A stretch of DNA of 64,000 nucleotides from Azolla caroliniana (taxonomy: Eukaryota; Plantae; Polypodiophyta). The notes under the pieces are model-generated. The model was given only the letters and a program-made list of their open reading frames with translations. It had not been told where the DNA came from and did not search any database. Location: contig JBHGNT010000010.1 in assembly GCA_043228905.1 (NCBI GenBank), forward strand, positions 16,244,001 to 16,308,000, in the 5' to 3' direction. The position numbers and the translations under genes are program-made. The stretch's first letter is position 1, and each line of letters begins with the position of its first letter. Below are positions 3,855 to 57,951 of this stretch, piece after piece.

Positions 3855-3992
3855 GCAATCGGCAACGGTTTGGTTTAAAACAGTTTTCCGGTTTGATTCG
3901 ATTCGATTCAAGTTTCAAAATTTTTAAACGGTTCGGGTTTAGACCGGTTTGGTATTCACACTCTCGAACCGAATCGAACTGTGGCTGATTGT
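3855..3992. mobile_element. MITE-like element with imperfect TIRs
   Basis: CAATCGGCAACGGTTTG versus reverse complement of CGAACTGTGGCTGATTG (13/17 match); flanked by direct repeat TACTTGCAAATT at 3843-3854 and 3993-4004. Confidence 0.6.
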
Positions 3993-4486: not shown

Positions 4487-7009
4487 ATGTATGTGTCAAA
4501 GGAACTCATCTACGGTCTTTTAAGAGAATGTATCCACAAGAAGGACCTTAAAGGTGGAAGGAGAGTTCAATGTATTATCATCACTAATGGGTTTTTCCAG
4601 ATTAACATACTAAGCAATAATCTCATCAGACTCTATGCTTCTTGTGGTTGCTTGCTAGAGGCAAACCTAGTATTTTGCAGCATTCCCCAGCCCAGTGTGT
4701 TATCATGGGAAGCCATTATCTCAGCTTATGCTTCTTCGGGACGACACGATGTCGCTTTAACGTTGTATCATACCATGAATGTTGAAGGAATTGAGGTCAA
4801 TCGGTGCATCTTTCTTTCTATTCTCAAAGGCTCTACTTCAGATGGTTATGGTGTGAAAAGAGGCATGATTATACACAACGAGATTATGAGAAACGGGTTT
4901 GATTCAGATAAAGCTGTCATGAACAGCTTGATCGATATGTATGCGAAGTCTGGCAATCTCGATGAAGCTCAGAAAGTGTTTGACAAGACCATGAATAGAG
5001 ATATCGTGTCATTCAGTGTGATGATTACCGGATACACACTTCACGGGTATGGATCACTGGCACTCAGCTTGTTTGAGAAGTTGCATGAACAAGACGAGAA
5101 ACTGGACAAAGTCACATTTCTGACCACATTGAAAGCATGTAGCAATGAGGCTTCAGTAAGGCAAGGAAGGTTGATTCATGGTGAGTTAATCGAGAGTGGA
5201 TTTGAATCAGATATGTTGATTGGAAGTGCAGTCGTTGATATGTATGCCAAGTGTGGGAGCCTTGAGGAGGCACAAAGAACATTCGACATATTGCAAAACC
5301 GGAACATTATTTCATGGGGTGCATTGATTTCTGGATATGCCCAACATGGCTATGGCAATGCTGTACTTCAGCTCTATAATGAAATGGTCATGTCTAATAT
5401 TGTTCCAGATAAAGTTATATTTGTCTGTGCTTTAAAAGCATGTGGTAGCATTCAATCCATTGTTCATGGCAAATATATACATAATCAGATCATTAGAATG
5501 GGGCATATATCAGATCCGATCGTTTCTAGTGCTTTGATTGACATGTATGGGAATTGTGGTAGCTTAAATGAAGCTCAGAAGGTATTTGATAGCTTACCAG
5601 TTCAAGATGTGGCTATATGGAATGCCTTGATTTGTTCATACACTCGACATAATCAAGGTCATTCTGCCCTTAAGCACTTCCAAGAGATGCAAAAGGGCAC
5701 TATCAAGCCCAACAATGCCATCCTTGCAAGTGTTCTCAAGGCATGTAGCATTATTGGGGATACAATGCAAGGTTTAATACTCTATGATCAAGTCATTAGA
5801 AGTGGGATGGATTCTGATGCTATTGTAGGAAGCTCTGCTGTCGATATGTATTCGAATCATGGAGCTATTCAAGAGGCTCAGAAAGTATTTGACATCTCAC
5901 CCAAGAAAGATGTTGTCTTGTGGGGTTCTCTCATTGCTGGATATGGCCAGAATGGCTATGGACTCTTGGCATTATTGGTATTTGAGAAAATGCAAAAGAA
6001 GCACGTAAAACCCAGTAGCTTTATATTCTCATCTGTTCTAAAGTCATGCACAATGATCGGAGCTTTAGAAGAAGGACAACTGATTTATGATCAAATTCTC
6101 AAAAATGGTCTGGAGTCAGATGTTATCATTGGAAATGCACTAGTCAACCTGTATTCGACCTGTGAAAGCTTAGAAGAGGCAAGGAATATATTTGATCGAG
6201 CTGTGCATCTCGATATGGTATCTTGGAATGCAATGATCTCGGGATATGTCAGGCAAAGACATGCGATTTCTGCATTGGAACTTTTTGATCAAATGCAACG
6301 GAGTCCTTGGGTGAATCCAGATAAAGTCACATTCTCATGTGTTTTAAAAATATGTGGTAATGTAGGAGTCTTGGGGACAGGAAAACATATACATAGTGAA
6401 GTGTTGAAAAATCAACTGGAATCAGATGTTGTTGTTGGAACTAGTCTTATTGACATGTATGCTACTTGTGGAGCTTTGGATGAGGCACGGCAAGTGTTTG
6501 ACACCTTAGAGAATAGGAATTGGTTCTCATGGTGCGCGTTGATTGCTGGTTATGCCCAACATGAGAAATGGGACTTTGCAGTTCAATGTATACATGAAAT
6601 GCAATGCCAAGGCCTTAAGCCAGATGATAGAATCCATACGATCATGCTTGCTTCATGTAGCCAATTAGGGGAACTAGATGAAGGATATCGATATTTCAAG
6701 TCTCTAAAGGAAGTCTATGGGTCTTTGCCAAATGAGGAACATTTTAACTGTATGATTGACTTGTTTGCTAGGAGTGGGAATTTGAGCGAGGCTTTAGAGA
6801 TACTTAAAACAATACCGACTTCACCTGACATCATAGGATGGATGTCTCTTCTTACTGCCTCTGAGAAGTTCAGTCATACAGGAATGGGTGGGGATTGCTT
6901 TAATGAAATTGTTCAAATCAATCCGACTTTTCCGGTAGCGTACATGTTTATGGCAAATATTTACTCTGATTCGAATATGTCAAGAAATCTTGTAGCATGC
7001 AATCAATGA
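4487..7009 (+). CDS. PLS-class pentatricopeptide repeat protein (organellar RNA-editing factor type) with E1 motif; E2/E+ tail out of frame, no DYW seen
   Basis: 840-aa intronless ORF with repeated P-L-S triplets (e.g. SLIDMYAKSGNLDEAQKVFD, ISWGALISGYAQHG, VTFLTTLKAC), then P2-L2-S2 and an E1-like motif (PDIIGWMSLLTA...YMFMANIYS). Confidence 0.92.
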   Translation: MYVSKELIYGLLRECIHKKDLKGGRRVQCIIITNGFFQINILSNNLIRLYASCGCLLEANLVFCSIPQPSVLSWEAIISAYASSGRHDVALTLYHTMNVEGIEVNRCIFLSILKGSTSDGYGVKRGMIIHNEIMRNGFDSDKAVMNSLIDMYAKSGNLDEAQKVFDKTMNRDIVSFSVMITGYTLHGYGSLALSLFEKLHEQDEKLDKVTFLTTLKACSNEASVRQGRLIHGELIESGFESDMLIGSAVVDMYAKCGSLEEAQRTFDILQNRNIISWGALISGYAQHGYGNAVLQLYNEMVMSNIVPDKVIFVCALKACGSIQSIVHGKYIHNQIIRMGHISDPIVSSALIDMYGNCGSLNEAQKVFDSLPVQDVAIWNALICSYTRHNQGHSALKHFQEMQKGTIKPNNAILASVLKACSIIGDTMQGLILYDQVIRSGMDSDAIVGSSAVDMYSNHGAIQEAQKVFDISPKKDVVLWGSLIAGYGQNGYGLLALLVFEKMQKKHVKPSSFIFSSVLKSCTMIGALEEGQLIYDQILKNGLESDVIIGNALVNLYSTCESLEEARNIFDRAVHLDMVSWNAMISGYVRQRHAISALELFDQMQRSPWVNPDKVTFSCVLKICGNVGVLGTGKHIHSEVLKNQLESDVVVGTSLIDMYATCGALDEARQVFDTLENRNWFSWCALIAGYAQHEKWDFAVQCIHEMQCQGLKPDDRIHTIMLASCSQLGELDEGYRYFKSLKEVYGSLPNEEHFNCMIDLFARSGNLSEALEILKTIPTSPDIIGWMSLLTASEKFSHTGMGGDCFNEIVQINPTFPVAYMFMANIYSDSNMSRNLVACNQ

Positions 7010-19446: not shown

Positions 19447-20106
19447 TGTGGCAAAGTCACTAGGACTAAGGTTAAGGGGAGTTGAAGAAACTTTTATAAG
19501 GCTTCTGCACAGATCTTAGGAAGATTAAGGATAAGAAGAATAAATGACTTGTGGGAGAGAGATGAGCACAAATAAGAATAGCGACAATGTATGATTGAAG
19601 AAGAGAAAATGTATGATAAGAACAAGCTTTATATTAACTCTAGATTTGAACCCATGACTCCAACTTCGAAACACAATACTCTTCGGAGATAAGCTAACTT
19701 GTTTGATTGATTATTTTATTTTCTAACTTTCTCTTGATTCATTTCTTCTTTTCCCTAATTAATCCCTTGATTCCTTGCCTCTCTTTCCTTCCCCCTCTTT
19801 ATATAGTTGTTCTCATGCAAATGATAATGTGTGGGTGCATAGCATGCATGGCATGCATGTGATGCATGATCTTCATTTGGCGCACATGCGTTACATGTAA
19901 TGCATGATGGCCATCATGCTCATCTAAGCTCCCATGTATGAAAAATAGCATACCATAAATGCAATAACAAAAATATAAAAAATAACTTATCTTAATGGTA
20001 TGTGTTTTTTACTTGGTATATAAGGTTATGGGTTCAAATCTTTCAAATATTACTTAATATAATATTCGAGTTTATTTTTATATCGTGAAGCAATTCCTTC
20101 ATGACA
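19447..20106 (-). repeat. LTR-like sequence (Tcn1-like style), unpaired
   Basis: TG...CA termini (minus-strand start TGTCATGAAGG, like other chromovirus LTRs here), minus-strand TATA near 19800, carries tRNA-like A/B boxes; no TSD found. Confidence 0.5.
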
Positions 20107-23500: not shown

Positions 23501-24514
23501 ATGTCATCATTTAGAATATAGTCTTGCGCAAAAAGATTCGCTCACGCCTTTATCTTCTTATTGGTTTCTCTTCCGCCTTCTTCTTCTATCTTCTTGTCTC
23601 CTCTTTTGTCTCCTTCTTAGTTTCTATCTTCTTTTTGTGTTCATCTTCTTCTATCTTCCTATTTTTCTCTTCTATCTACCTCTTCTATCTTCATTTTCTT
23701 CTTCTTTACATCATTTGTCTCGGCCACTCTATTTTTTGGTTTCTATTCGTGTTGATCCTACTTCCAGCTCCCCGTCTTGTGTCTCATGCAGGTTCTTCCT
23801 CCTGTTTCCGTTTGTCTGCTTTCTATTTGTTTGATGTTGTTCTTTCTTCTTTTACGTGTGTGTCGTCTCGATGGTCTGGCAACGACGAAATGGCGTGCCA
23901 TTTGCCATTTGTCGTCTGTCTTCCCGTCTGTCACGGACACACCAAGTGCGGACTATGACAGAGCATGGATGACGAGGCTACGAGCGACGAGCTACGAACT
24001 TGGAGCTAGAAGTGACGAGGTTAGGAACTCTGGAAGTTATGAGCGACATGAGAGCATGAAGAAAGAGATGAAGGAGACAAGTTGGGGCGAAACGAGAATA
24101 CTAGATTGATGTGTCAATGACTGGCGTTGAATCCCCTTGAAAGGGACCAAGGAGGTTACAAGTATTTATACAAATTCTGAGATTGAATAAGTCTAGAATA
24201 TACTCGAGAAATATCTCTAGAACATACCCGACAAATATCTCTAGAAATATACCTGTCTAGAATACACCATAGAATATTTCTAGAATATTCTGGAATGTAT
24301 TGTATGCTAGAATATATAATACTAAACTAATATATATAATTACATGCTCATATCCAAATGGTTTAGCATGATGTTTTGTTGCAGTGAGGTTGTAGGTTCA
24401 ATCCTCGCCAACTATGTATTTTGTCACGATTGTGTCGTGACATTATCCTCCCCTTTATGGTCGCCTTTTCATGGTGTACGGGTGAGCGGGAAGGGGTGCA
24501 CCAGCGGACGGTGT

Positions 24515-24714
24515 GACCATGTGCGGCCCTCACCGAGAACTGGAACACGAACGGGAGTGAGCGACCATGCGGCCCTCACCGGGAACTAGAACACGAACGG
24601 GAGTGAACGGCCATGTGGCCCTCATCGGGAACTGAAACATGAACGGGAGTGAGCGGTCATGCGGCCCTCACCGGGAACTGGAACACGAACGAGAATGAGC
24701 AACCATGCGGCCCT
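24515..24714 (+). repeat. 46-bp tandem repeat (continues at 30480-30545 after the nested insertion)
   Basis: Unit GACCATGCGGCCCTCACCGGGAACTGGAACACGAACGGGAGTGAGC, about 6 copies in total, split at GCCCT by element 24715-30479. Confidence 0.9.
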
Positions 24715-25139
24715 TGTCAGAACCAAGGATAAAAGATAGAGTGATGGAAGAAGGATATTAGAGAACACAAGAAAGGAACGAAATACTAAGAGAAGAACGG
24801 ATGTATAAGATAGAGAAAGAAAGAGAATGGATACAAGATATGTAATGAGAGCTAAAGACTGGTGTTGATTCGAATTGATTTGAGAATACATGTATGCCCT
24901 TATTTATAGGTTCCTATAGAACAGCTTAGAGATTTCTAGAATGTTCTAGAATGTTCTAGACCTAGAATGCTCTAGGACATTCTAGAACATTCTAGAATAA
25001 TCTAGAGGTTTTACAATAATCAATGTAATACAAGAAGTAGCTTTTATTGTTTCATATAACAATAAGCTATCTTAATGGTTGAGGTTTTAAAGTATGGATT
25101 ACAAGGTTTGAGGTTCAAGTCCGGGTGACGCCATAATGG

Positions 25140-28100
25140 TCATGTGTTCATGACACTATCCCTCCTTCGAGAACGCCGAGTGGAAGTCGGCGTTAACATT
25201 GTTGGGCCGGGCTTGTTTGGATAGTGATGATGGAAGTCGTTGACCAGAGCTTCAACATTACAAACGTTATCAATGGGTTCCCAAGTGCGATCACTCGGAG
25301 GATAGCCAAGCCAATCAACTAGATAATAAAGCTTATTGCGCACAATCTTAGAATCGAGAATAGCAGCTACCTCGTATTCGGGGCCGTCCACAAGTTGTAC
25401 AAAAGGCGGTGGTGGCACGACACGATTAGGAATTAAAGAGGTGCGACAAGGTTCCAAAAGAGAGCTATGAAAGACAGGGTGAAACCGCATATATGCAGGA
25501 AGGTTAAGACGAAATTTTGCATCATTAATCTGCGTCGTGATGACAAAAGGACCTAAGCGTTGATAGTCAAGCTTAGCACACGGTCGGGTAGTCTTGATGT
25601 GACGACGAAGCAACCATACACGGTCACCAACCTTAAACGGAGACTTAAGACGATGTCGATCGGCATTTGTCTTATTGTGTGCTTGCGCTTTCTGAAGATA
25701 TGACGATAACTCGAACTGGATTTGTTGTAGTCGGTGGAGGTGATGCGTCGCACTAGGGTTTCGTGACACCTCGGGAAGATCCAGTATACACCATTGAGGG
25801 TGGTTGCCAATGTAGGCAAAGAAAGGTGTAACTTTGGTAGAAGAGTGAACCGTGCTGTTGTATGCAAACTCGGCAAGATGTAAAATATTACTCCAATCAT
25901 CTTGTTGATAACTAATGAAACATCGACGATATTGCTCGAGCATTTGATTTGTGCGCTCTGTTTGTCCGTCAGTTTGGGGATGATAAGCCGAAGAGAGTTT
26001 GCAAGAGATTTTGAGGCCTGCCCATAGGTGCTTCCAAAAGTGTGAGATAAATTGAGGACCTCGATCGCTAATAATATCATTCGGGAGACCATGATGGCGA
26101 AACACTTTATGCATAATGAGATCTACAGTTTCTTCACTATTGATGGTCTTTACAGATGGTACAAAATGTGCCATCTTGGTGAACCGATCCACTACTGTTA
26201 AAATAGTATCAAAGCCTTTGGAAGGTGGCAGATCTGTAATGAAATCCATAGAAATAGACTGCCATGGCTTGTTGGGAGGGGGTAATGGTTGTAGTAAGCC
26301 ATAAGGGTGATGCCGAGGTATTTTGGCGCGACAACAAGTGTCACAAGTGTGAACATAATCTTTGACAAATTTTTGCAAGTGAGGCCACCAAAATGAACGT
26401 TTCACCAGCTCAATGGTTTTGGAAATACCAAAATGTCCAGCCATGGGGGCATCATGACAATGTTCCAACACTTGAAGTCGGGGTGATCCGTGGGGACGTA
26501 AAGGAGATTCTTGTAGAAGAGTAAGCCATCTTGCCACTTGAAGTCCTGATAATGTTGAGATGACCCTGGCAATGTGGAGCAAGATGGACGACTTGAACCA
26601 CAGTGGGCTAAGACATCCTTAGCGAAATCATCTGAATGAAGTTGTTGCCGAATAGTGTCAAGAAGGGTAGAATCAAGTGGCGTAGCATAAATTGTTGTTA
26701 CCTGTAGCTTTGATGGCCCGAGGAGAATTTGCTTTTGATTGTCAAAGGCCGGATCTCCAGGTCAAAGTGCTAGATACGAACGCCGAGACAAAGCATCTGC
26801 TTTCCCTTGTTGTTTTCCGGGGCGAAAAATGATCTTGAAATCGAAATGCGTTAGAAATTGGGCCCACCGAGCTTGGCGTCTATTTAATACTCGAGTTGTT
26901 TGAAAATATGTGAGATTTTTGTGATCACTATAAATGATAATCTGATGAGGTGATCCTTCTAGAAAATGACAGCATTGCTCGAATGAGTCGACCACAACCA
27001 GTAACTCCTTGTCATGCAACTCATAGTTTATCTCCGAAACAGTAAATTTTCTCGAGTGAAACGCGACTGGATGTGTCTGCCCGTCCTCGCCTGGTTGCGA
27101 TAGGATACTCCCCAATGCAAAGTCCGATGCATCTACCTCAATAGTAAATGGCTTTTCACTATCAATATGTGCTAGGATGGGTGCTGATGTGAATGCCTCT
27201 TTCAGCTGCATAAAAGCCTTGTCCGCTTCGATACTCCAAAAAAATGCTTGATTTTTCTTGGTGAGTTGAGTAAGGGGAAACACAATGCTTGAATAATTAT
27301 GTATGAATTTGCAATAGAAGTTCGCAAATCCGAGGAAACACTGGACATCCCGAACTGAGCATGGGGGTTTCCATTCCAATATTGTTTGGACTTTTGTTGG
27401 GTCCATGAAAACACCCTGGGATGAAATAGTGTATCCCAAAAATTCAACTTGTTTGCAATCAAAACTGCATTTCTCAAGTTTGGCATAAAGACCATACTTC
27501 CTTAGGCGTTCAAGTACTTGCCGCACATGTATATCATGCTCCCCCTGTGTTTTAGAGTAAATCAATAGATCATCTAGGTAGATGATTAGAAAAATATCCA
27601 AGAAATCCCGGAAGATGTCATTTGCCATATGTTGGAATACTGCAGGTGCATTTGTGAGCCCGAAAGGCATGACTGTATACTCGAAATGACCATACCGAGT
27701 ACGAAATGTTGTTTTCCACTCATCTCCCAGCCGAATTCGAACAAGATTATATGCACCCCTTAGATCAATTTTGGTAAAATGCTTTGCCCCACTAATGCGT
27801 TCTAAGAGATTGGAGATTGAAGGTAAAGCATACCTATTCCTTATGGTGACTTTATTTAAGCCTCGATAGTCCACGACCAAACGAAGGGAGCCGTCCTTTT
27901 TCTTCACAAAAAAGATAGGGGCACCAGCTGGAGACTTTGAATGTCGAATAAACCCATGTGCAAGATTTTCCTCGATGTATTCTCGAAGAACCTCAAGCTT
28001 AGTGGGTGATAAATTGTAAATCGGACCCCACGGTGGCTCTTTTCCTGGTTGGAGATCAATAGGACAGTCGTACAGCCGATGCTTTGGAAGAACACTAGCT

Positions 28101-30029: not shown

Positions 30030-30659
30030 GAATCAAACTGTCAGAACCAAGGATAAAAGATAGAGTGATGGAAGAAGGATATTAGAGAACACGAGAAGAA
30101 AGGAACGAAATACTAAGAGAAGAACGGATGTATAAGATAGAGAAAGAAAGAGAATGGATACAAGATATGTAATGAGAGCTAAAGACTGGTGTTGATTTGA
30201 ATTGATTTGAGAATACATGTATGCCCTTATTTATATGTTCCTATAGAACAGCTTAGAGATTTCTAGAATGTTCTAGACCTAGAATGCTCTAGGACATTCT
30301 AGAACATTCTAGAATAATCTAGAGGTTTTACAATAATCAATGTAATACAAGAAGTAGCTTTTATTGTTTCATATAACAATAAGCTATCTTAATGGTTGAG
30401 GTTTTGAAGTATGGATTACAAGGTTCGAGGTTTGAGGTTCAAGTCTGGGTGACGCCATAATGGCCATGTGTTCATGACAGCCCTCACCGGGAATTAGAAC
30501 ACGAACAGGAGTGAACGACCATGCGGCCCTCAACGAGAACTGGAAGAACAAAGAGCAAAGGATTGCAGGTGAATCGGTCGACTTGACTTCTTCTATCATG
30601 AGAGATAAATAGTTGAGGTTGACCCAAAACACGACACAAATGGTAGCGCTAGCGAGAAA

Positions 30660-31402: not shown

Positions 31403-32279
31403 CCCCCACCGGAACTATGAAGGTGAGTGATCAAAATCAATCTGTTTGATGAAGACGACAAGAGGTGATGAAAATGATGATGTCGAAAACAAGGCAATGA
31501 AGATGAGGAAGCATCTCTAAAACCAACGATGTTGATGACGGTAACTCTAGAAGCAAGGACGGTGACAATAGTAACTCTAGAAGCAAGGGTGATGATGAAG
31601 ATGGGTAATGCTTCCAATTGGAAGAGATTCAAACTGTCAAGGACACACCAATCACGGACTATGAAGGAGCACGGATGACGAGGCTATGATCGATAAGACT
31701 ACGAGCATGGAATAGGCAGTGACAAGGCTAGGAATTGTAAACGTTATGCGTGATGAGACTATGAACTTAGGAAGCTATGGAGAGCATGAAGACAAAGATG
31801 AAGAAGGAGACAAGATGGGGTGAAACGACAACACTAGATTGATGTGTCAATGATTGGCGTTGAATCCCCTTGAAAGGGACCAAGGAGGTTACAAGTATTT
31901 ATACAAGTTCTGAGATTGAATATCTCTAGAATATACTCGAGAAATATCTCTAGAGTATACTCGTCTAGAATATACCGTACAATATTTCTAGAATATACTA
32001 ACAACTAGAATATTCTAATTCTGAAATGTATTATATGCTAGACTATAGAATGCTAAACTATTATATACAACTGCATGCTCATATCAAAATGGTTGAGCAT
32101 GACATATTGTTAATGTGAGGTTGTACGTTCAATCCTCACCAACTATGTATTTCATGTCATTGTGTCATGACACCGCCTTTTCGACCCTTCGTCTCTTTTT
32201 GTCTGGCTGTCTACTCGTCTTTCCGGCCATCGTCGTTCGCCGACCGTCTCTGTTCGTGGTCATCTCTATCTAACGACTC

Positions 32280-35196: not shown

Positions 35197-38100
35197 TCAG
35201 GTTGTTAAGACAACCACTTTAAGTTCCAGATTCTCTCCTCGATCTCCTCCTATTAATCACTATTATTCCTCTCTATACGTGTGGCCTTAAAGTGCCTATT
35301 AAACACCCCTACCTAGTATTCATCAACACTCAAACTAATACTATGTTATTTACAATTGATATTACATCAAACTCTTTCGTGTGCATCCATGCACACCCTC
35401 GTTCATGCACGGTCGGTTAGGTTTCTCCTTGTGGCCGGAATCCTCCACGACAACAATATTCCATCTCCAATCACAATCCGCTTGATAAAACAATTTAGTG
35501 ATTAAGACATTCGACCGTTGTGTTGGTCGGTAGTGACAACAATCTCCATGTTATAATCTTTGGAGATTGTTTATCGTTGACCTCATATCATGCATCTTGG
35601 AAGCTATCTTACATTTCCATAATAAAACCCTAATAAAACCATCAAAATCCTCTACTAGTAGCTACCTACTTTCACATGGCCTTGTTACAACTCTTGTTTT
35701 TCTTATATATAATAAAATTCCTTTTCATTATTCTCCCCTTACAATCAAGTACTATTTTTGGCTTCATCCGTTGATAGGTGAACATGAATGGATTGACAAC
35801 ATTGAGATTTTCCAATTATACAAGTTCCCTACTCTTACACATGCCCACCGCATAGGTGTGATGTGTGGATCAGTCAACTTGCTAAACCCTACATTGTTAA
35901 TTCCATGGAAATTTCAACAACTTCCAGATCGATTCTATGGTGCTTGCCACTTCACAATCATGAATAGTTATCATATAACGTTGTATATCATATAATAATA
36001 TGATTATAGCTAGATTCTTAGATGTATAATAAGGAGGTCATGGGTTTAATTTTTATGCTCATGAAAATTTCCATAGAAACTAAATGCCTAAAAATGAGAA
36101 TATTCGAGAATATAACCTTTCATTCTAAATGTCACACATTTCTAAATGTTTCCATAAAAGTCAAATGCCTAAAATGAGGATATTCAATAATATAACCTTT
36201 CATTCTTAGTGTATTGTCAAGTTTCAACTACATATGTAAATCACATATTTCTAAATGTTAAATGAAAATATTCGAGAATATAGCCTTTCATTCTTAGTGT
36301 ACTATCAACTAAAGCACACATTTCTAAATGTTTTTGCTGACGGGCTTTGTAATATTAGGCATAAAACGAAACGTGTTGTATGCCTTGTACTAAGTCATTG
36401 TGGATTATTTAGCAAGAGCCGTTTGAAGTTATATCCTTTCATAGTGGATTACTGCATAACATTTGATCAGTTTAATGGGCTTCCACACATGTCATTTGTG
36501 CAATGTGATTGGAGAATATTATAATCTAAAGCATCTTTAAAAATAAAGTTGGCATCTAAGAAAGCTTCACCACCTCTTATAACATAAAAATAACACATGT
36601 TTTGAATCAAGGCTAGATGTAACATCCATAATTACATCTAACATCCTCACAATGGAGGAGACCAAATCGTTTCTTTGTTTGCGAATTCAGGAAATTTTTG
36701 CAATCTCACTTAAGTACCATTAGGAATAAAATATAAAACATTGAAATGCATAATCCCAGTCATGCAAAATTGACACGCACATAAACCGTCTATTGGTATT
36801 TTTATTCCAAAGTGAGGCTAGCAATGGTATTTGGATTCGTTGACAAATGAGACGATGCTTACAATTGAAGTTATTTCAATGTCTCTGTAGATAAAATCCC
36901 ACCTTGGTACGCTTAACCACTGGTGATAGATGCATATGTTTACAAAGGAGTAAACATTAGTACATTAGGGTTCCACCAACTGAATAAAATTTTGTGAGAT
37001 ATGTTATTTATGAGACCATTGGGGAGAGGTTAGTCTATGCTAACAATAGACTTATGTCGATGCCTTTGCAATTTGAGTGATGCGATTAAAAGCCCAATTG
37101 CAAGCGAGAGGCAAGATTCCTATGCAATGCATGATCGATTCCCACGTAATCAAGAGAATGTACGTGCATTTGTGGATTGAGACTCCCGTGAAATGGAAAC
37201 TCTTCATCCATCCCCACTCATGTCCGATGGGTCAGAGTACATTAGTATGCATGAGATGGTTCCGAGAAATGCATGGCATGATCGATTCCCATATACATAT
37301 GTATATGTACATGATGTTTCTATTTGCAACCAAATAATAGAGAGGCTTGGTGAGGAAATTGCAGTCACAGACGGTGCAAGGTGCGTTTCGAAAAGTGCGT
37401 GCAATATGCACCATCATATCTTTATCCTAAAAAACTATTTACTAACCCAACCTTGACTAGTGTCTGTCACGTCTAACTCAAGCAGTAAGGGTTTCCAACT
37501 TGAACATTGTTATTACTAACCCAGAACATTATTTACAGCATGACCACTATCAATTTGAACTCAACCCACATTTTTTCTAACCCGTCCAAATGATTAGCTA
37601 CTCGCACATTTGAAGCCCCTAGATTACTAACCCAATCAATGGATTGTTTAACCCAGGCCAATCCTTTCATGAAATTACCTAACCCTGACTATATTTAGAC
37701 TAACTTGACCAATTATTCTATGTTTACACGACTTTGAGAGGAAAAATAAACCGGTCTATTACTGATCTTGAGCGTGTTTTAATCAGGGATAGTGTCTTCC
37801 AACACTTGTATCGACAAGATCGTGGTATGTGGTAGAATGGTACATGCAAAGGCAAGAGTTATGTGAGAGTGGTAGATTCCAGCAATGTGCAAATTGTAAG
37901 GATCAAAGGTCAACACTTAAAGAAACCAAGAGGATATTACATATGTGACTAGCAACAATACAATGCATATTGCGGATGAGATCCGATATTGGTTTCAAAT
38001 ATTGAGCATGAACACACAATGTCATGCTCCAATGCTCTTATTGTGATTATCAAAACCTTGCAAGTAAATGTAAGTATTCACTTGGAATTGGATGATTGGT

Positions 38101-38558
38101 GAGAGACATATGTCATTGCTATGTGGGTCGTTGATGTCATAGACATATGCCACAGAGGAAGGTAGGGATTGAACCCAAGACCTCATGGTCTCTATTGGGC
38201 AAACCCTACCACTTGAGCTACATATGCATCCTTATATTTAATTCAACTTCATATAGTGTAGATTGAACATTGGAAGTTCCTAGCTTACATGCATTCTCAT
38301 TCTCTAGCTTGCATGCTTCCTCATGCGTACTCTATTGCATGCATCCTCATGCACTATTTCTAACTGGCTTACATAGCCCTACCCTCTTGTATAAATACTC
38401 ATGTGCACCTTGATTCTAATCAAGGTGTACAACACAAGTTACGGATTCTATAAGTTGAGTTCTTGTTCTTTTCCTCTCTCTTGTTCTCCAGTCTTATCTT
38501 CATTCTACTCTATTATACTTGTCCGTGACAGTTTGTACACCTTCCTTTTCTTGCTACC

Positions 38559-39596: not shown

Positions 39597-40143
39597 GAGC
39601 CATGCCGTTGGACGCTTCCCGTTACTCACCTTCTCCAGTCCGAACCGCCATTAGGAGGGTTTTCTTTGCAAGTAAGTCTTTGTTTTGGTTCGTATTAGAG
39701 ATTAGGTACTAAAGTAAGCATAAAATAAGGATATATCAATGATAGATCTAGAAAGAATAGAGAGAAAAGAGAGAAAGAAGGGTGCCGATCCACCCGACCA
39801 CCCCCGAGCGAAGGGATCGAGACGGACTCGAGCCTCGATCGGCGTCCCATACTACCGCCTTGGCGTCGAGTCGTACCTGGACGATAGCGCGCTTGCTACA
39901 AGAGTCGTTCCACTCACGGACAGAGTCTCAACGTAGTCAATGCATGCCCCAATGAGGGTAGCTAGGCCTCTTATTTATAGTAATTCTCAAGGCCCCCAGC
40001 CATGTTCACACTTGGCCTCATGGGTTGTCTCAATCCCGAGGATTAAAAGTAATCCTCCCCTTCTTTAGACTCTTTGTTTAACCCTCACACTTATCCACGT
40101 GTATAGAATACTACGACAATTCTCACCACGGGATATTATATGG

Positions 40144-43100
40144 TCATGCCCGTAACATACTCCCCCTCTTTAAAACATTGCACTCTTGCAATGGAAAGTT
40201 AGGGAAGTTAGTTCTTAGAGTCGTTTCGCGTTCCCATGTGGCATCTTTGATTGATTTATCCATCCATTTTATTTTAAATTCTCGGATTTCCTTAGCACGT
40301 AATTTTTTTGTTTTAACATCGAGAATTCTTTCTGGTACATGTGGTTTAGAAGATAAATCTTCAGAAGTAACCAGAGTTTCAGTTGTAACTGTATTGTCGC
40401 CAGAACCTAGAAGTTCTTTTAGACGACTTACATGAAAGACTGGATGGATTCCAACACCATCGGGAAGAGCGAGACGATAGGCTGATGATCCAATGCGTTT
40501 GAGGACTGTAAAAGGTCCACAAAACCGTGGGGCTAACTTAGCGCACTTACCCGTAGACAATGTCTTAGAATTGTGAGGTACACGTAAAAATACCTTCTGT
40601 CCAGGGCTGAATACACGAGGTTGCCTGTGATGATCGGCATAAAAACGCGCTCTATCTTGAGCTGTTTTTATATTATCCCGTGCAATATGCAACATATCTT
40701 GCATATCCCGAAGAAAGTTTTGCGTACTTCGCAACTCATCATGATGTATATTAACATCAATCGGGGCTCGTGGCTGAAATCCATACATCAACATAAAAGG
40801 ACTATATCCCGTCGACGTATGCTTGGAGCTGTTATAAGCAAACTCCAAAATTGGGAGGTAACGTTCCCATTTTGTTGGTTTTGCACCAACGTATGCTCGA
40901 AGCATGTCCTCAATAATTTGATTTACTCGTTCTGTCTGTCCATCGGATTGAGGATGATCCGTGGAGCTCATGCTCAACGTAGTTTCTAACTTCTTAAAGA
41001 CTTGCGTCCAGAAGTCACTAGTAAACTTCGGATCTCGGTCACTCACGATATCCATCGGTAACCCGTAAAAACGAAATAACTCATCAACGAATTGGTAAGC
41101 CAATTCAGGAGCTGTTACCGTGGTTTTAGTAGCAATAAATCTGGCCATTTTAGTTAGTCTGTCAACCACAACCCATATGGCATCATGACCTTTTTGGGTG
41201 CGAGGAAGGCTAACAATAAAATCCATGGATATACTTTCCCACTTATTATTGGGAATGTCCAAGGGATGTAAAAGTCCTGCGGCTTTAAGTCGCTCGGCTT
41301 TGTTAACCTGACATTGGTGACATTTAGTCACATAGCTATGTATGTCAGGACGCATCTTAGGCCAATAAAATTGAGTGGAGATGAGAACGAGTGTACGATG
41401 TATTCCAGGGTGCCCTGCTGAGGGTGCATCATGGCATTCAAAAAGAATTCTCTTTTTGACCTCAGGTAAATCTGGAACACAAACCTTCCCATTACGGTAG
41501 AGCAGACCGTTAGCAATGTGGAAGTATTCCTTCGAGGGTGTGGTGGTGTCTGTTCCAGACTCGACTCTTGCCCAGTATTTTGCAAAATAATTGTCATCAG
41601 GATACTTTCCTCGAAGGTGATCATAAAGATCTGATGTTATTTCAGTGAAGCTAAGCATGTTAACTTCACGGATGCGACTTAGTGCATCAGCGACAGTATT
41701 CATGGAACCTTTACGATATCGTATGGAAAAATCAAAGTCCTGGATGAGATCAGCCCATCGTGCCTTACGACCTTTCAGGTCTTGTTGGTCACAAAAATAT
41801 TTCAAGGACTCGTGGTCCGTAGTTACCACAAAGCGATTTCCATAAAGATAATGGCGCCATGTTTTGAGCGCATGTATAACCGCAAATAATTCCTTTTCTT
41901 GAACGGTATACCGACATTGAGCAGAATCAAGTTTCTTACTCTCGAATGCTATTGGTTTACCATCTTGATACAAGACAACACCTATAGCATAATCGCTTGC
42001 GTCGGTTTCAACCTCAAAAGGTTTTGAAGGATCGGGTAAAAGAAGTGAAGGAGCCTTGCATACCAAGTCCTTGAGTTCCTTAAAGGCGAGGTCTAGTGTA
42101 GCATTCCACACAATAGGTTTTGTAGACTTACGCGTTTGACCTTTTAGAAGATCAGTAAACGGCGTCGTCAATTGTGAGTAATTACGAAGAGATTTTCGCA
42201 AAAATCCGACAAAACCAAGGAATGATCGAACTTCTCGAATATTCCGAAGAGTGGGCCAAAGTTTGATTTTCTCGATGCGAGAAGGATCAATTTCAACTCC
42301 TCGTTCGGTTATGAGATGTCCAAGATAAGTAATTGATTTCTTGAAGAACTCACATTTTGAGATCTTCGCGTAAAATTGTTTGTCACGCAATATTTGTAAA
42401 ACAAAGCGGACATGTCTAGCATGTTCTTGTAATGTACGGCTATAAACTAAAATATCATCTAAGAAGATAACGACAAATTTTCCAAGTTGTTCTCGGAAAA
42501 TGTCATTCATTTCTTGTTGAAATGTAGTCGGAGCATTGGTCAAACCAAAAGGCATAACCAAAAACTCATAATGACCGTAGCGCGTACGAAATGCTGTTTT
42601 AGGAACATCGTCCTCACTTATTCGTATTTGATGGTAGCCAGTACGGAGATCAAGTTTCGTAAAATACCGAGCTCCCTGGAGACGGTCAATTAGATCGTCA
42701 GCCCGGGGCAATGGGTACGAATTCTTGATCATCACTTTATTCAAGCGTCGGTAATTAATACACATACGCCATGTGCCCTCTTTCTTTTTAACCAAGAGAA
42801 CTGGTGCACCCCATGGAGATTTACTATAACGTATATAACCCATTCGTAAATAGTCCTTAAGTTGCTTAGCTACCTCATCCTCTTCAGATCGACTTAGGCG
42901 ATACGGAGGTATACTAATGGGTGCAATGCCAGGTACAATATCTATATGATGGTCTATATTACGTTTAGGAGGTAAACCATCGGGTAGTTCACTCGGAAAA
43001 ACATCACGAAAATCGTTTACGATTTCATCAAGTTGTTTTTGTTCAAAATATGTTAATTGACCCGAGACATTATCGATATTGTAAACGTGAATGTCCGGAT

Positions 43101-48000: not shown

Positions 48001-48693
48001 TATTCCCCATTTTTTGCAAACATTGGGTACCATCCTCGTTGGACGATGCTTGAACATCCTGAACTCCCAAAAAACCCAGCTGCTGAAGATCGGCTCACTC
48101 GACTCCAAGAAGTTCAGGATATGCTTTTGCATCATTTATGTGAAGCCCAAAACACTCAAAAGAAGATTGCTGACCGTCATCGGCGTGATTCATCGACTAC
48201 ATTTCAAGTAGGCGATCGTGTATGGCTCTTACAAGGTAGCATTAAAACGACCCGACCTTGCTACAAATTGGATTATCAACGTTTTGGCCCATATGTCATA
48301 AGTGGTAAGATCAATGATGTGACATTTCGTCTTGATCTTCCTCCTCATATGCGTCTTCACCCGGTCTTCCATGTTTCACTTTTGGAGCCTTACACAACGA
48401 GCTCTATTCCGGGTCGTGTTACACCTCCCCCACCTCCAATTGACGTTTCCAATGGCTCTGAATATGAGGTTGCCGCTATCCTCAACTCCAAGATCATTCG
48501 CAACAAACTATACTACTTGGTTGATTGGTTAGGCTATACACCTAATGATCGAACATGGGAGCCTGCCGAACATCTTGCCAATGCCTCCGACATGGTTGTT
48601 GCATTTCACAACCAATATCCTCATAAACCAAGTCTGAACTCTTTTCTTCCGACTCGTGCAACTCGTCATCGAAAAGGGGGGATAATGTCATGA
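45049..48693 (+). pseudogene. N3 pol in the -1 frame (PR-RT-RH-INT-chromodomain), single in-frame TAG at 47869-47871
   Basis: LLDSGANSCF, YLDDILIYS, ADASDFALG, HDTPMAGHFG, SLDFITDLP, YEVAAILNS..YYLVDWLGY..TWEP; ORFs 45088-47871 and 47941-48693 share one frame. Confidence 0.92.
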
Positions 48694-49032
48694 AGACATA
48701 CATCTTGGCTTATCATGACATTCATCTTGGCGAACCAGGAATCGAACCCATAACCTCTTGGTTTACATATTGTACTTTAACCATTGTAATAACATATGTG
48801 AGATGTAATCATAATAATTATATGTTTAGTTATTACGAGATATTTAGAACATTCTAGAATCTAGAATGTTCTAAATATCTCGTAATAACTAAACATATAA
48901 TTATTATGATTACATCTCACATATGTTATTACAATGGTTAAAGTACAATATGTAAACCAAGAGGTTATGGGTTCGATTCCTGGTTCGCCAAGATGAATGT
49001 CATGATAAGCCAAGATGTATGTCTTCATGACA
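48686..49032. repeat. perfect 347-bp palindrome made of the LTR U3 half
   Basis: 173-bp arms are exact reverse complements around a single central base at 48859 (ATTCTAGA-A-TCTAGAAT). Confidence 0.95.
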
Positions 49033-49742
49033 ATAGCGAAGAACTATCTCAACGGCCTCTTCGAAGGATTTTGGATCCTTATCGTGCACTATCCAGTGAT
49101 AGTCCGAATTGGGGATGCCATTGACAAAACAAGCTATTAACCAACTGTCCCCTTCTAGACCCGATTTTTGGATTTGGGTTCTAGCATGGTGGACATAATC
49201 TTCTAGCGAGGAAAACTTCCTGCTAGAGAGGTTCATTAAAGCTTGTGCTGCCTCGGTTCGAGAGGGAGGTTGTAGAAATTGACCCTTGAAAACTGTGACA
49301 AAGTCTGTCCAGGTCTCGGGCAATCTCCCCAAAGTTCGGAGCCCACGCCACCAAGCGGCGGCCTTACCCCCTAGTTCTCGGCCGACATATGCAATCTTCG
49401 TACTATCTGGGGTGGGATAGAGCTCAAAATGAGACTCCCATCGGCCCAGCCACGTGCAGATTGCTTCTTCGGTTCTTTCCTTTTTATCTCCCGTAAATGG
49501 CTTTACGACAAAGGATGGTTCACCCTGACGCTCATCAGGTCTATTAATCTCATTTTGGAGACTAATGACTCGTGCCTCGAGAGCACTTTGAGATTGCCGA
49601 AATTCGGTCAACTGCTGCGCGGTTGAACTAAGGAAATGTTGTACTTGTAAAATATACGCCTCAATGGACATTGTCCCAGGAGGATTTCCTTGAGGTCTTT
49701 CCGCTTGAGCGGAGGGCATCGGGTCGTTATTTTGAGCCATTG
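49033..49742 (-). pseudogene. N2 gag N-terminal part, interrupted by N3
   Basis: VKPFTGD, LGGKAAAWW, WTDFVTVFKGQF retrotransposon-gag motifs; zinc knuckle FCVFCKKKGH lies at 43453-43773. Confidence 0.85.
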
Positions 49743-50936
49743 AATGATTATTTCTGGCAAAGAAATAAGATAAGGTCAGACAAATAGTCATAACATCTTG
49801 TCGTGGTGTAAACATATCATGGGCAAACATTAATCGATATCATGATCTCACGTCAATACCCCTCTAGACGTATGAGATGAGGTTCAAGATCAGGTTACTA
49901 TGGTAACACAGAGGTGTTTTAAAAACCATGGGGGTGACAAATGAATGCCTTTCCCTGATCTCTATATCGATTTTTTTCATGGCGGCTCCCCGAGGCTCAA
50001 CCATGTATGTTCGCGTCATGAATAGTTTATACACGAAAAAAATGTTAACAATAACTATGTTTCTGTGCCCACATATGTGGTTTCGGCTCTTTAAGTCCTA
50101 TTACGAGGACCCCGAAGTGCACTTAGACCTAAAGTCTAAACATGTATTATAGTCATATGTATCAACGATGTTGTATGGTGTTGGTCATATTTGAACTCGA
50201 GACCTCGAGGACAAATACATTAAACACTTGAGCCAACCAAGTAGATTGCGCGTCTTGAATGTTTAATGTTTGAGGCGTATTCGAGATATGCGAGGCATTT
50301 GCCCCTATATGTTTTTTTTAAAAGAAACATATAGGTCAAGTGGCCTTATTTCTCCCTCATTTATTACCCACTATGGTTGTACGCTACCTACCCTCAAGCC
50401 TCGTAAGTACAATGGCATATGCCAAAGTGTAACCTAATGGTCAAGCCGAATGAGCCCTTGTGTCTTCGTAGGCTCATGTGGCCCATCACATGGTCACGTC
50501 ATTACGAATGGCGCTCGTAAGAACGAGCTCATGGTGGCATCGTATCCATGTAACGAGGGGAGATGTTGGATACGTGTGTCATTAGAGCGACCCTACTTGA
50601 TGTGGATCAAGCCCGACGTATTCAACATCATTTTGGCTATACTAGGTTCGTTACGTAACGAAAGATCAAAGTGACCAACGGGAATTGCAACAATAAAAAT
50701 TGTTGATAAAAGGGATGGTGACAACGCCATTCTCACAAAAATGTGAGGACGGCCACCAAAATCCTCTCCCCAATTAGGAAAACATTTGATATGAATCACG
50801 TAATCTAAAATATACACATATGTCAATATATCACATATATACGATCAGAGACGTATATAAGTGACCACATATGCGTATACTAAATGAATCGTTTTTTTTT
50901 ATATAGCCAACAATGATGTATTCAGGATACGTAATC

Positions 50937-51178: not shown

Positions 51179-51904
51179 GTGGACATATGTAAACGTTTAA
51201 GATAACCAATTAAATACCACGTCAACATCATTGAATATATGAAAAAAAAACTACATATTAAGTATACACATGTATAGAAGGGAGAAGAAAAATTAGATAA
51301 AAAATTAAGGAAAATTTACCGAAGTTCTTTCGCTAATCCTTGTCTGCATGAAGGCGACCGCACAACGATCAATCGCCATCCCACGCGAAGACAAAAAGAA
51401 AACCAAAAGAAACGTTAGTACATAGGCTCTGATACCAAATATTAGAGATTAGGTACTAAAGTAAGCATAAAATAAGGATATATCAATGATAGATCTAGAA
51501 AGAATAGAGAGAAAAGAGAGAAAGAAGGGTGCCGATCCACCCGACCACCCCCGAGCGAAGGGATCGAGACGGACTCGAGCCTCGATCGGTGTCCCATACC
51601 GCCGCCTTGGCGTCGAGTCGTACCTGGACGATAGCGCGCTTGCTACAAGAGTCGTTCCACTCACGGACAGAGTCTCGACGTAGTCAATGCATGCCCCAAT
51701 GAGGGTAGCTAGGCCTCTTATTTATAGTAATTCTCAAGGCCCCCAGCCATGTTCACACTTGGCCTCATGGGTTGTCTCAATCCCGAGGATTAAAAGTAAT
51801 CCTCCCCTTCTTTAGACTCTTTGTTTAACCCTCACACTTATCCACGTGTATAGAATACTACGACAATTCTCACCACGGGATATTATATGGTCATGCCCGT
51901 AACA

Positions 51905-55280: not shown

Positions 55281-57951
55281 CCTCTATTGAGCAAACCCTA
55301 CCACTTGAGTTACATATGCATCCTTGTATTTAATTCAACTTCATATAGTGTAGATTGAACATTGGAAGTTCCTAGCTTACATGCATTCTCTATTGCATGC
55401 ATCCTCATACGTACTCTATTGCATGCATCCTCATGCAATATTTCTAGTTGGCTTACATAGCCCTACCCTCTTGTATAAATACTCATGTGCACCTTGATTC
55501 TAATCAAGGTGTACAACACAAGTTACGGATTCTATAAGTTGAGTTCTTGTTCTTTTCCTCTCTCTTGTTCTCCAGTCTTATCTTCGTTCTACTCTATTAT
55601 ACTTGTCCGTGACAGTTGAGATATATGTGGGTCATTGTACACAATTAGTTGGCATATATCAGGAAAACATTTTACGGTTTAAATGAGGTAGAAACAACAT
55701 GCTTAAGCTGGAAGCAACAAATTGGCACAAAAAGAGGAGTCACGCCCGTAATCTCGCAAAAACTTATTGGCAACTCCCCAAACACAACCAAAACACACAA
55801 TGGAAGACTACAGAGAACTCATTGTGTTGAGAGGCGGTTGCCATTACATGAGATAGAGAAGGTTCGGTGTTTGCATTGTGATGGCTTAACATTGACTTCG
55901 AGGGACTCTAATGCTGATTGTTGCAAAAACTGTAGGTGTATCTTGCCATCCTCTAAACAAGAACCATGGTCTTTGACTTTTTGTTTAGAACTTGGATTTT
56001 TTTAAGTTTGTGGTGTTGGGAGTTTGTATATGTACAACTTCGAGATTTTGATCTTTGAACATGTATGAAATGTGGACAAAATTTTGTGATCATTGAAGTT
56101 TCTAGTTATCTCAAAAAAAGTTGGTGGCTGAAAATTTAATCTTCATTTAAACTTGAGAAGGTTAGGTGATTGCAATCATCCTTCATGCTTTGTTTACAAC
56201 ATGTGATCTTTGGAGTTTTTAGTCTCTTTGTTGCAAACATTGGTGGCTAAACTTTTTATGCTGGTTATAAATTTATTTGTGGATGACCCAATTGGTGGCT
56301 AAAATCAGTGACATTTTGTTTACATTTAGTGCTAGACCAAGTTTTTGGTGAGTTTTTATATCTAAAACGACAGATTTTGTATTCTGAAAAGGTTTTGGAT
56401 AAGTTTCGGGAATTTTAGATTAAAAAAAAGGCCTCTTTAGAAATTTCAACCAGGTTTGATGCAGATAGCCGAGTTTTAAATTCGGTCATGGGTCAGAGAA
56501 AAATCGACCGGGTTAACAACTTTGTGCTGAGGCTAGTCAGAGACAGGTTAGATGTGACAGAGGTTGGTTAGAGCCGGTTTGGATTAGGGGGGGGGGGGGG
56601 ACTTTTTTGGGATAATATGATCCAACAACGAAGATCACACACGCTTATTGAAACGGGGTCCACACAGTTTGTGATAGCAAGATTTCCTCACCATGCCTCG
56701 TATATAGGAACATGGGCGGCATATATGTACAATACTATCATAGTTCCTAATATTCGCATATGTCCGATATGGTAGACCTATACAAACGTTTGTATATGTT
56801 CGCGTATAATATGCGATATTCATTTTATTTCTTATTTTTTAGGAAACGAACATGGCGCATGACCTCAAAATTTTCAACAGGTTCCTATGTAAAGATGAAG
56901 AAACAAAAATACGTAAAGAAGAAGACGATAGACAAATATAAATATATAGAAAGATTCCTATATGACGAAGAAAAGATGATGATGATGAAGAAACAGAGAT
57001 ATAGAGAAGAAGATGGTGGAGCGGAAGAAAAATGTATGGAAGACAATAGAGAAGAAGTGGAAGAAGAAGAAAGAAGAAAAATTGATCACACAATGCAATA
57101 TTAGAAAGACTCGGTTTTGAATCAGGGGAGTAAAACACACAATGTGAAAGAAGAGGAAGGAAACCACATATATATAAAGGGAGAAGAAAATCTCAATATA
57201 TAGAATAAGAAAAGAAACACAAATTAGTGGAGAGAAGAAAAACACAACGCAGTAGAATGTAAATCCGAAGAAGAAGAAATACTTCTTTTTGAATATGTAG
57301 ATTCTATATTGAAGATAGACTATGCATTATAACCATAGACTTCTTGAAACCTTAGTAATTGACTACGTGTTGTTGATCCATCTTGAAACCAAATGTTCAT
57401 GACATATTGTCATCGATTAACACCTCGCTACATAACATTTTTCTTGCGATAAGAATGTTTGTTTTGGGGGAATTCTATATCGAGTTTGGTCAAATTTGCT
57501 ATATGTGATGGGTTATATCATACATGTGATGGCTAGAACTATCATACTTGGGGCCATTTCACGTATGAGTATAATACGAATATGCACGTATGAGTATAAT
57601 ACGAATACTCACGTATGGTATGTATGTGACGAATGGGAAGTATGGCTAGAACTATGAGTACAAATGTGATTTTGGTTCCATATAGAAGAAGATTCAAGAA
57701 ACACAGGAGCATATTCATGACAGGAAATGTAATGTGGTACTACGTAGACGGTAGTAGTAGCAAGTACGTAAAGTAGATCGAGTCTCCGGCGAAACGGAAA
57801 CTCATCATCCATCTGATCAGAGAATACTATAGAAACACGACGCATTCTTCTGCTCCTTCTTCTCCATGGCTACTTCAGCAGATACTGACAAGCCTTAAAG
57901 ATCCTAGGATGTGACGCGTCTTCTTCTTCCTCCTTTGATCCTCTGGTCCTG

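What the first reader, a model, noticed from the sequence alone, without database searches (positions are those of the whole stretch)
38143..38227. tRNA-like Pol III promoter module built antisense into the U3 end of every Tcn1-like LTR family
Seen: the minus strand of the O2 5' LTR reads GCATATG-TAGCTCAAGTGGTAGGGT...GAGGTC-TTGGGTTCAATCCCTAC...CATATGT, i.e. D-arm/A box, variable loop, T-arm/B box and an acceptor-like stem. The same A box-B box layout, always antisense and about 30-65 nt from the U3 terminus, occurs in otherwise unalignable LTRs: O1 (TATCCAAATGGTTTAGC 24351; GGTTCAATCC 24395), I1 (TATCTTAATGGTTGAG 25068; GGTTCAAGTCC 25112), N3 (TATTACAATGGTTAAAG 48927; GGTTCGATTCC 48970, then TCGCCA) and the LTR at 19447-20106. 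Known: Cassandra TRIMs carry 5S rRNA Pol III promoters in their LTRs, and TFIIIC-bound B boxes can act as chromatin insulators. Inference: these elements, which appear not to use a tRNA primer, have kept a tRNA-derived module, possibly as an insulator against silencing, an outward or antisense Pol III promoter, or a targeting signal. I do not recall this being described for Tcn1-clade LTRs, but could not check the literature.
Basis: partly seen in the sequence, partly recalled or inferred. Interest (0 to 1): 0.82.

Follow-up and report, generated by a model that had tools for sequence, protein, structure and literature searches.

The report
Outward tRNA promoter in fern retrotransposons
Several families of jumping genes in a fern carry, at the outer edge of their terminal repeats, the two promoter boxes of a transfer-RNA gene pointing away from the element, which likely recruit the cell's tRNA-transcription machinery to shield the element's own promoter from silencing; my literature searches found no description of this arrangement in protein-coding elements.

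Summary
A tRNA-type A box, variable-loop motif and B box lie antisense near the U3 end of five LTR families in the window (O2, O1, I1, N3, X), at tRNA spacing of 43-46 nt. They are the seven best hits of an untrained promoter matrix over 64 kb. Each LTR beats 500 of 500 shuffles. Two of the three closest outside relatives carry the module too. Sequence between and around the boxes is unalignable, so the box letters are what is kept.

Three corrections. (1) It is not in every Tcn1-like family: L015, Selaginella SM-Tcn1 and 121 more distant relatives lack it. (2) There is no cloverleaf; the 'acceptor stem' is an O2-only palindrome. (3) O2 folds as a long hairpin that is not shared by most families.

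The host is a fern. The coding elements are self-priming Tcn1-like chromoviruses. The likely role is a TFIIIC/Pol III site that points outward, 160-183 nt from the Pol II TATA box, and acts as a chromatin barrier. Binding, transcription and function are untested. The closest known case is the Helenus TRIMs, which are non-coding and carry the tRNA sequence in sense orientation. Verdict: new variant of a known kind.

The parts
38135..38530 (+). O2 5' LTR (TG..CA, 5-bp TSD shared with the 3' LTR end at 55614)
   Evidence: (loose ends and depth step at 38135)
38207..38220 (-). O2 A box (tRNA positions 8-21, D arm)
38179..38183 (-). O2 variable-loop motif
38165..38175 (-). O2 B box (tRNA positions 52-62)
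   Evidence: no variant at >=8% in 4 runs
38161..38210 (.). O2-specific long hairpin covering the module (folds on both strands; not a cloverleaf)
38235..38270 (-). AT-rich stretch upstream of the A box (77% AT; predicted TFIIIB/TBP site)
38390..38397 (+). Pol II TATA box of O2, 170 nt from the A box
38422..38432 (+). Predicted transcript 5' end, complementary to the PBS (self-primer)
38533..38543 (+). O2 self-priming PBS
55282..55614 (+). O2 3' LTR, truncated: PPT, U3 end and B box lost, A box kept
24351..24405 (+). Module in O1 3' LTR (LTR 23929-24442, minus strand; O1 is non-coding)
32082..32136 (+). Module in O1 5' LTR (31635-32172, minus strand), B box with one change
25068..25122 (+). 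Module in I1 3' LTR (24715-25155, minus strand; gag-pol-chromodomain element)
30385..30446 (+). Module in I1 5' LTR (30039-30479, minus strand), with a 7-nt duplication before the B box
48738..48791 (-). Module in N3 3' LTR U3 (starts 48686, plus strand)
48927..48980 (+). Same N3 module in an inverted duplicate of the U3 end (48860-49033)
19988..20041 (+). Module in LTR X (19447-20106, minus strand; family not assigned)
39693..40157 (-). Negative control: LTR of N2, a tRNA-Met-type-primed chromovirus (other LTR 51440-51904); no module in U3

Best explanation
The U3 ends of several Tcn1-like LTR retrotransposon families of a fern carry a tRNA-derived A box, variable-loop motif and B box pointing out of the element, which likely bind TFIIIC and likely act as a portable chromatin barrier for the element's own Pol II promoter. 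Shown: the boxes, their tRNA spacing, fixed orientation and position, their conservation against unalignable flanks, the AT-rich upstream stretch, the 160-183 nt distance to the TATA box, the lack of a cloverleaf and of a fixed terminator, and self-priming of O2 and I1. Inferred: an ancestral LTR captured a tRNA or SINE head in U3 and LTR copying spread it; selection keeps the letters that TFIIIC reads; TFIIIC, TFIIIB and perhaps Pol III keep the edge of the 5' LTR open where these chromodomain elements sit in silenced chromatin; the outward orientation avoids Pol III running into the Pol II promoter.
For: Conservation is of box letters, not structure. Mean pairwise identity among 7 families: A box 0.61, variable loop 0.75, B box 0.72, against 0.30-0.35 upstream, between and downstream. 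Only the G53:C61 pair of the T stem is Watson-Crick in 7 of 7. A-B spacing is 43-46 in 7 of 7 while the distance to the LTR end runs from 26 to 76. Upstream is 77-91% AT, in the top 4-21% of 35-nt windows of the 4 LTRs tested, like plant tRNA genes (PMC11700998, passages). T8-to-TATA is 160-183 nt in 5 of 5 LTRs measured. In hundreds of O2-family contigs in each of 4 DNA runs with 4 organism labels, 1 of 26 box positions varied at >=8%. The intact integrases carry a chromodomain. tRNA genes are known barriers that need TFIIIC and Pol III (PMC2040200, abstract).
Against: There are no binding, transcription or chromatin data. L015, sister to O2 and L016 with long open frames and self-priming, lacks the module and about 150 nt of U3, and SM-Tcn1 lacks it by eye, so it is dispensable for the lineage. 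Four families have T at position 10 of the A box where tRNAs have G, and L020 has a C56-to-T change, which would weaken binding. Within the O2 family the boxes are not uniquely invariant: 26 of 134 other positions vary (p=0.08), and 38246-38294 is as quiet (3 of 49). The published barrier is orientation-independent, so it does not by itself explain the fixed orientation. The tight spacing and the kept variable loop fit rival 2 equally well.
Confidence: 0.47

Rival explanations
1. The module is a working Pol III gene whose RNA is the point: a short antisense or outward transcript (a hairpin in O2) that acts as a small-RNA precursor, decoy or regulator, as with the Pol III miRNA cassettes in foamy virus LTRs.
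For: O2 folds into a long hairpin (z -4.1; z -3.8 for the core alone; 0 of 200 shuffles as good). Family variants fall more on unpaired positions (6 of 16) than paired ones (3 of 34), p=0.02. L020 also folds (z -2.4). Precedent: PMC3993851 (passages).
Against: 5 of 7 families do not fold better than shuffles (z -1.1 to +1.5). The first T4 run lies 24 to 403 nt from the B box, so the transcript has no fixed end. The O2 hairpin folds equally on the other strand. The variant count rests on a few deep contigs.
Confidence: 0.2
2. The module works as RNA on the other strand. The element's genomic RNA carries at its 3' end a complement of the D loop, variable loop and T loop common to most tRNAs, and anneals host tRNA to aid packaging, dimer formation or cyclisation, like the 3' part of the Ty3 bipartite primer site.
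For: This explains the strict antisense orientation, the tRNA-length spacing and the kept variable loop. Ty1 and Ty3 RNAs pair with tRNA T and D arms, and in Ty3 two segments lie in the 3' UTR (PMC4974528, passages).
Against: These elements self-prime. Pairing should tolerate G-to-A and T-to-C changes through wobble, and such changes are the commonest in these repeats. Yet G53, T54 and T55 are unchanged in 7 of 7, the D-loop GG is present in all 7, and the shared changes seen (G10 to T, C56 to T) are true mismatches. No 3' CCA complement is kept.
Confidence: 0.13
3. It is a relic without current function: one old SINE or tRNA insertion carried along, or several independent SINE insertions into U3.
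For: It is lost in L015 and absent in SM-Tcn1. The two module-bearing clades are not joined with support in the tree. An 8-nt direct repeat flanks the O2 module and could be read as a TSD. Weaker tRNA-like relics occur elsewhere in the window (50191-50236, 36035, 19652).
Against: Boxes are kept while the sequence between them is at background identity (0.30). Orientation is the same in 7 of 7 families and position is similar. There is no poly(A/T) tail of 6 or more in any family, and the longest shared up/downstream words are 4-7 nt. Among the loose ends shown there is no cluster at the module's 5' edge, while the LTR edge is clear (178 rows not shown).
Confidence: 0.14
4. The boxes serve integration: TFIIIC bound near the cDNA end tethers the integration complex to Pol III sites or to particular nuclear positions.
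For: The B box lies 26-76 nt from the end that integrase processes. Targeting to Pol III genes is known for yeast Ty elements (PMC4974528 passage).
Against: The elements here are nested in other retroelements and no tRNA gene lies in the window. Known targeting uses integrase-protein contacts, not boxes on the element (own knowledge).
Confidence: 0.06

Closest known systems
Helenus TRIMs / TRIMp3 (Kojima 2024, PMC10886601; parts 1-4 of 6 of the text, passages, supplement passages read)
   Same: A tRNA-derived sequence inside the LTR, with boxes A and B conserved, mostly no functional tRNA, no role in priming, and a proposed origin by SINE insertion into an LTR. One plant family is known (Selaginella).
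   Different: Helenus is short, non-coding and tRNA-primed. In the four consensus LTRs I saw (three wasp, one Selaginella) the tRNA sequence is in sense orientation and is thought to drive the element's transcription. Here it is antisense at the U3 edge of gag-pol-chromodomain elements that have a TATA box and self-prime, so it cannot transcribe the element.
Cassandra and Ajax TRIMs (as described in PMC10886601)
   Same: A small-RNA-gene-derived Pol III promoter in LTRs.
   Different: 5S-derived, non-autonomous, and used as the element's own promoter.
Foamy virus LTR Pol III miRNA cassettes (PMC3993851, passages)
   Same: A/B-box Pol III units inside the LTR of an autonomous retroelement, beside a Pol II unit.
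   Different: They have defined terminators and demonstrated hairpin RNA products. Here there is no fixed terminator and only 2 of 7 families fold.
Tcn1 clade chromoviruses (PMC2864245, passages and supplement S3; PMC6317226, passages)
   Same: Chromodomain integrase, self-priming, non-seed-plant host. The I1 PBS begins with the same letters as SM-Tcn1's, by eye.
   Different: Neither paper's main text mentions Pol III (0 occurrences in each; 'tRNA-like' was searched only in PMC6317226, also 0). SM-Tcn1's LTR lacks the module.
tDNA/TFIIIC chromatin barriers of fission yeast (PMC2040200, abstract) and B2 SINE boundaries (PMC8136502, listing only)
   Same: A and B boxes at a border between open and silenced chromatin.
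   Different: Those are host loci or SINEs, not parts of an LTR.

Membership tests
Helenus / TRIMp3 | tRNA-derived sequence with boxes A and B in the LTR | tested here: met
Helenus / TRIMp3 | Short non-autonomous TRIM (about 0.3-1.3 kb, no coding) | tested here: not met
   I1, N3, O2 and L016 encode gag/pol with a chromodomain; O1 is non-coding but about 2.5 kb
Helenus / TRIMp3 | Pol III promoter oriented to transcribe the element | tested here: not met
   antisense in 7 of 7 families; sense in the Helenus LTRs seen
Helenus / TRIMp3 | tRNA-complementary PBS | tested here: not met
   self-priming complement in O2 and I1
tRNA gene | Cloverleaf with acceptor, D, anticodon and T stems | tested here: not met
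Type-2 Pol III promoter | A box and B box at compatible spacing | tested here: met
   43-46 nt; A box degenerate at position 10 in 4 of 7 families
Type-2 Pol III promoter | AT-rich/TATA-like upstream region | tested here: inconclusive
   77-91% AT, but the LTRs are 60-66% AT overall and TATA-like words have no fixed position
Type-2 Pol III promoter | Downstream T-run terminator | tested here: inconclusive
   first T4 lies 24-403 nt from the B box
Type-2 Pol III promoter | TFIIIC binding and Pol III transcription | not testable with these tools
   no ChIP or usable RNA data
Free SINE insertion | Own TSD, 3' tail, copies outside LTRs | tested here: inconclusive
   no tail; only O2 has an 8-nt flanking repeat; the full pattern hits only LTR ends in the window; no genome to count free copies
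Tcn1 clade | Ty3/gypsy pol with C-terminal chromodomain | tested here: met
   I1 and N3; O2 degraded but placed with L016 and L015
Tcn1 clade | Self-priming, no tRNA PBS | tested here: met
   O2 11 nt, I1 12 nt, L015 11 nt; O1 only a degenerate match
Tcn1 clade | Phylogenetic grouping with named Tcn1 references | tested here: inconclusive
   no named reference in the tree; likeness to SM-Tcn1 judged by eye only

The most novel reading that the evidence does not exclude
A lineage of heterochromatin-seeking chromoviruses has built its own insulator into the LTR: an outward-facing tRNA promoter that recruits TFIIIC/Pol III to protect the Pol II promoter about one nucleosome away. Each insertion would then plant a new TFIIIC site, so these high-copy families would scatter very many boundary elements through fern genomes.
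Probability: 0.35. Interest if true: 0.82.

Novelty: new variant of a known kind. Interest (0 to 1): 0.6.

Why it matters
Pol III promoters in LTRs were described as the transcription engine of tiny non-coding TRIMs, or as miRNA cassettes of foamy viruses. Here they sit backwards in full coding retrotransposons and are kept while the rest of U3 turns over beyond alignment. If they bind TFIIIC, this gives a concrete, testable answer to how elements that insert into silenced chromatin stay transcribable, and makes these repeats a source of chromatin boundaries in ferns. A natural control exists: the sister family L015 lacks the module. If neutral, it remains a useful marker of LTR history and a source of false tRNA or SINE calls.

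Tried and rejected
No own genome was held, so no genome-wide LTR census could be made. Rfam and ARAGORN do not detect the module. A matrix from 47 tRNAs found in fetched loci was dropped, because those loci had been picked with a pattern taken from the modules. Viral-contig scans with pol queries gave only distant relatives. The careful tree did not finish; the quick tree left out loci under 44% identity, proteins after P0045, and L020 (too short). Sequencing runs: no RNA holder listed; the one run guessed to be RNA that I laid gave 6 contigs and says nothing on expression. Cluster look-up gave no host names for the pol relatives. The 'copia' control started at the PPT rather than the exact LTR edge. 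Cloverleaf or functional tRNA: rejected. Clade-wide presence: rejected. A role as primer or PBS: rejected, since the elements self-prime. Earlier findings by sequence: none.

Full report
Setting. The window is a nest of LTR retrotransposons beside a PPR gene. The PPR protein's closest named relatives by identity are fern proteins (Adiantum 57%, Ceratopteris 54%), so the host is most likely a fern. No whole genome was held. The finding lies in the 5' LTR of element O2 (38135-38530, plus strand; 5-bp TSD matched at 55615). I1 and N3 encode RT, RNase H, integrase and a chromodomain. O1 is non-coding. LTR X (19447-20106) has a PPT but no pol of its own nearby, so its clade is unassigned. O2 and I1 have no tRNA primer site. 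Instead 11 and 12 nt just after the 5' LTR are complementary to the LTR about 32 nt after the TATA box (for I1 the match is perfect in the 3' LTR and has one mismatch in the 5' LTR). This is the self-priming described for the Tcn1 clade (PMC6317226, passages). Membership in Tcn1 rests on these features and on likeness by eye to SM-Tcn1; no named reference was in my tree.

The observation. I scored both strands with a fixed textbook A+B matrix (consensus recalled, spacing 38-52). The seven best hits in 64 kb are all LTR modules. At score 18 or more there are 7 hits against a shuffle mean of 1.7 (maximum 5 in 200), and O2's 28.5 was never reached. These seven come from five families, as I1 and N3 each count twice. 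Each of 7 LTR ends tested beat 500 of 500 shuffles of its own U3, on the antisense strand only. The tRNA-primed chromovirus N2, a solo LTR and a copia LTR region did not (p 0.43, 0.06, 0.61). A variable-loop motif that was not in the matrix stands at the same offset in 7 of 7 families, which supports tRNA ancestry independently.

Outside the window. Integrase-based scans fetched 162 retroelement loci, of which 124 had at least 150 nt after the chromodomain. Only three are 55-60% identical to the I1 integrase. Two of them, L020 and L016, carry the module antisense at the U3 end (shuffle p 0.002 and 0.016). The third, L015, does not. None of the other 121 matches the core pattern on either strand; that pattern was widened after I had seen L016 and L020, so only the 121 are a clean test. 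With the untrained matrix, 69 distant U3 ends gave 3 antisense and 4 sense hits at 14 or more, which is background. SM-Tcn1 of Selaginella lacks the module by eye. In a quick tree, carriers fall in two supported clades, (L015,(O2,L016)) and the I1/N3 group, joined only by an open fork. L020 is closest to P0016 of the I1 group. The LTRs of the proteins in between could not be fetched, so one origin with losses and two origins both remain open. The hosts of L015, L016 and L020 are unknown and may be related to this one.

What is conserved. Among seven families, mean identity is 0.61 in the A box, 0.75 in the variable loop and 0.72 in the B box, against 0.30-0.35 upstream, between and downstream (ungapped, anchored on the boxes, which favours them somewhat). 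A-B spacing is 43-46 while the distance to the LTR end is 26-76. Structure is not kept: only G53:C61 of the T stem is Watson-Crick in all, and acceptor pairing in tRNA register is 1-5 of 7. It can equally be read as an 8-nt direct repeat, and it varies between organisms. O2 does fold into a strong non-tRNA hairpin (z -4.1) and L020 more weakly, while five families do not. Laying four DNA runs on O2 showed 309-431 contigs each. Of 26 box positions 1 varied at 8% or more, against 26 of 134 other positions (p 0.08), or 25 of 91 in a narrower span chosen afterwards (p 0.008); a 49-nt stretch further into U3 was equally quiet. Related contigs show a more canonical D arm. Loose ends mark the LTR edge, not the module's 5' edge, among the rows shown. 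O1 and I1 families are also highly repeated (2,676-6,455 contigs laid in each of three DNA runs).

Mechanism. Kept letters, lost structure, AT-rich upstream sequence and no fixed terminator fit a DNA site read by TFIIIC better than a defined RNA. The site faces outward, 160-183 nt from the Pol II TATA box in 5 of 5 LTRs measured, and so sits between host chromatin and the promoter of the 5' LTR. tRNA genes act as heterochromatin barriers through TFIIIC and Pol III in fission yeast (PMC2040200, abstract), and chromodomain integrases are thought to steer insertion to silenced chromatin (own knowledge). I therefore favour a built-in barrier (0.47). Rivals are a Pol III RNA product (0.20), a relic (0.14), annealing of the genomic RNA to host tRNA as in Ty3 (0.13) and integration targeting (0.06). 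Nothing about binding, transcription or function was measured.

Comparison and novelty. The closest case is Helenus (PMC10886601), which fails three membership tests here: size and coding, orientation, and primer. That paper notes that 'not a few' Repbase LTRs resemble part of a tRNA but analysed only TRIMs under 1000 bp, so similar autonomous cases may lie undescribed in Repbase. Ten full-text searches listed no paper whose title or abstract start describes tRNA-derived boxes in Tcn1 or other autonomous plant LTRs. I saw most hits only as listings, the library lacks most subscription journals, and the element table and FASTA of PMC6317226 and the DOC supplements of PMC2864245 could not be read. 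Earlier AI notes describe a tRNA-like insert inside a fungal Gypsy and tRNA 3' ends replacing the PPT in other families of this genome. Both are different features and were not checked.

Verdict. This is a real, lineage-restricted, selectively kept tRNA-promoter module in an unreported orientation and host element. It is a new variant of a known kind with untested function; interest 0.6.

Noticed in passing
window 48683-49035: Near-perfect 176-bp palindrome: the U3 end of N3's 3' LTR is joined to an inverted copy of itself, inside the gag of N2; no intact 5' LTR of N3 was seen near 43700.
   Followed up: partly
window 50151-50240: Degenerate A box, variable loop and B box (minus strand, spacing about 38) in the 5' internal region of N2, about 47 nt from a TGTCAT-like word; possibly a captured old LTR end or SINE relic.
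   Followed up: partly
window 36000-36066: Decayed variable-loop/B-box motif about 24 nt from a worn LTR-end-like word; possibly an old LTR of the same kind.
   Followed up: partly
window 19642-19696: A second, weaker A/B-like module (score 15.8, spacing 44) in LTR X, in sense orientation after the TATA box, so the two modules point away from each other.
   Followed up: partly
window 38147 (loose ends): 6-8 contigs in each of three runs share the module but continue with a different common end of about 11 nt and then diverge; possibly a sister element or a SINE-like derivative.
   Followed up: no
SM-Tcn1, PMC2864245 supplement S3: By eye, 13 nt after the 5' LTR are complementary to the LTR about 30 nt after TATA, i.e. 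a self-priming site, although the paper reports finding none.
   Followed up: partly
window 38405-38432; L015 1969-1996; L016 4408-4440: A short inverted repeat overlaps the predicted transcript start and self-primer in the O2 group, so the primer sequence also has a complement just upstream in the LTR.
   Followed up: no
window 24180-24300, 24930-25010, 31920-32030, 48850-48870; L016 4265-4340: U3 of several families holds arrays of short palindromic TCTAGA-type repeats between the module and the TATA box; O2 and L015 have CATG/ATGCAT-type repeats instead.
   Followed up: no
window 24522-24714 and 30480-30545: 46-bp tandem array inside the non-coding element O1, into which I1 inserted (TSD GCCCT).
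   Followed up: no
L094-L150 (genome contigs): Many prokaryote MAGs and some isolate assemblies hold contigs that are eukaryotic chromovirus retrotransposons, most likely contamination.
   Followed up: no
window 4484-7009: Long PPR open frame, best named relatives in ferns.
   Followed up: partly
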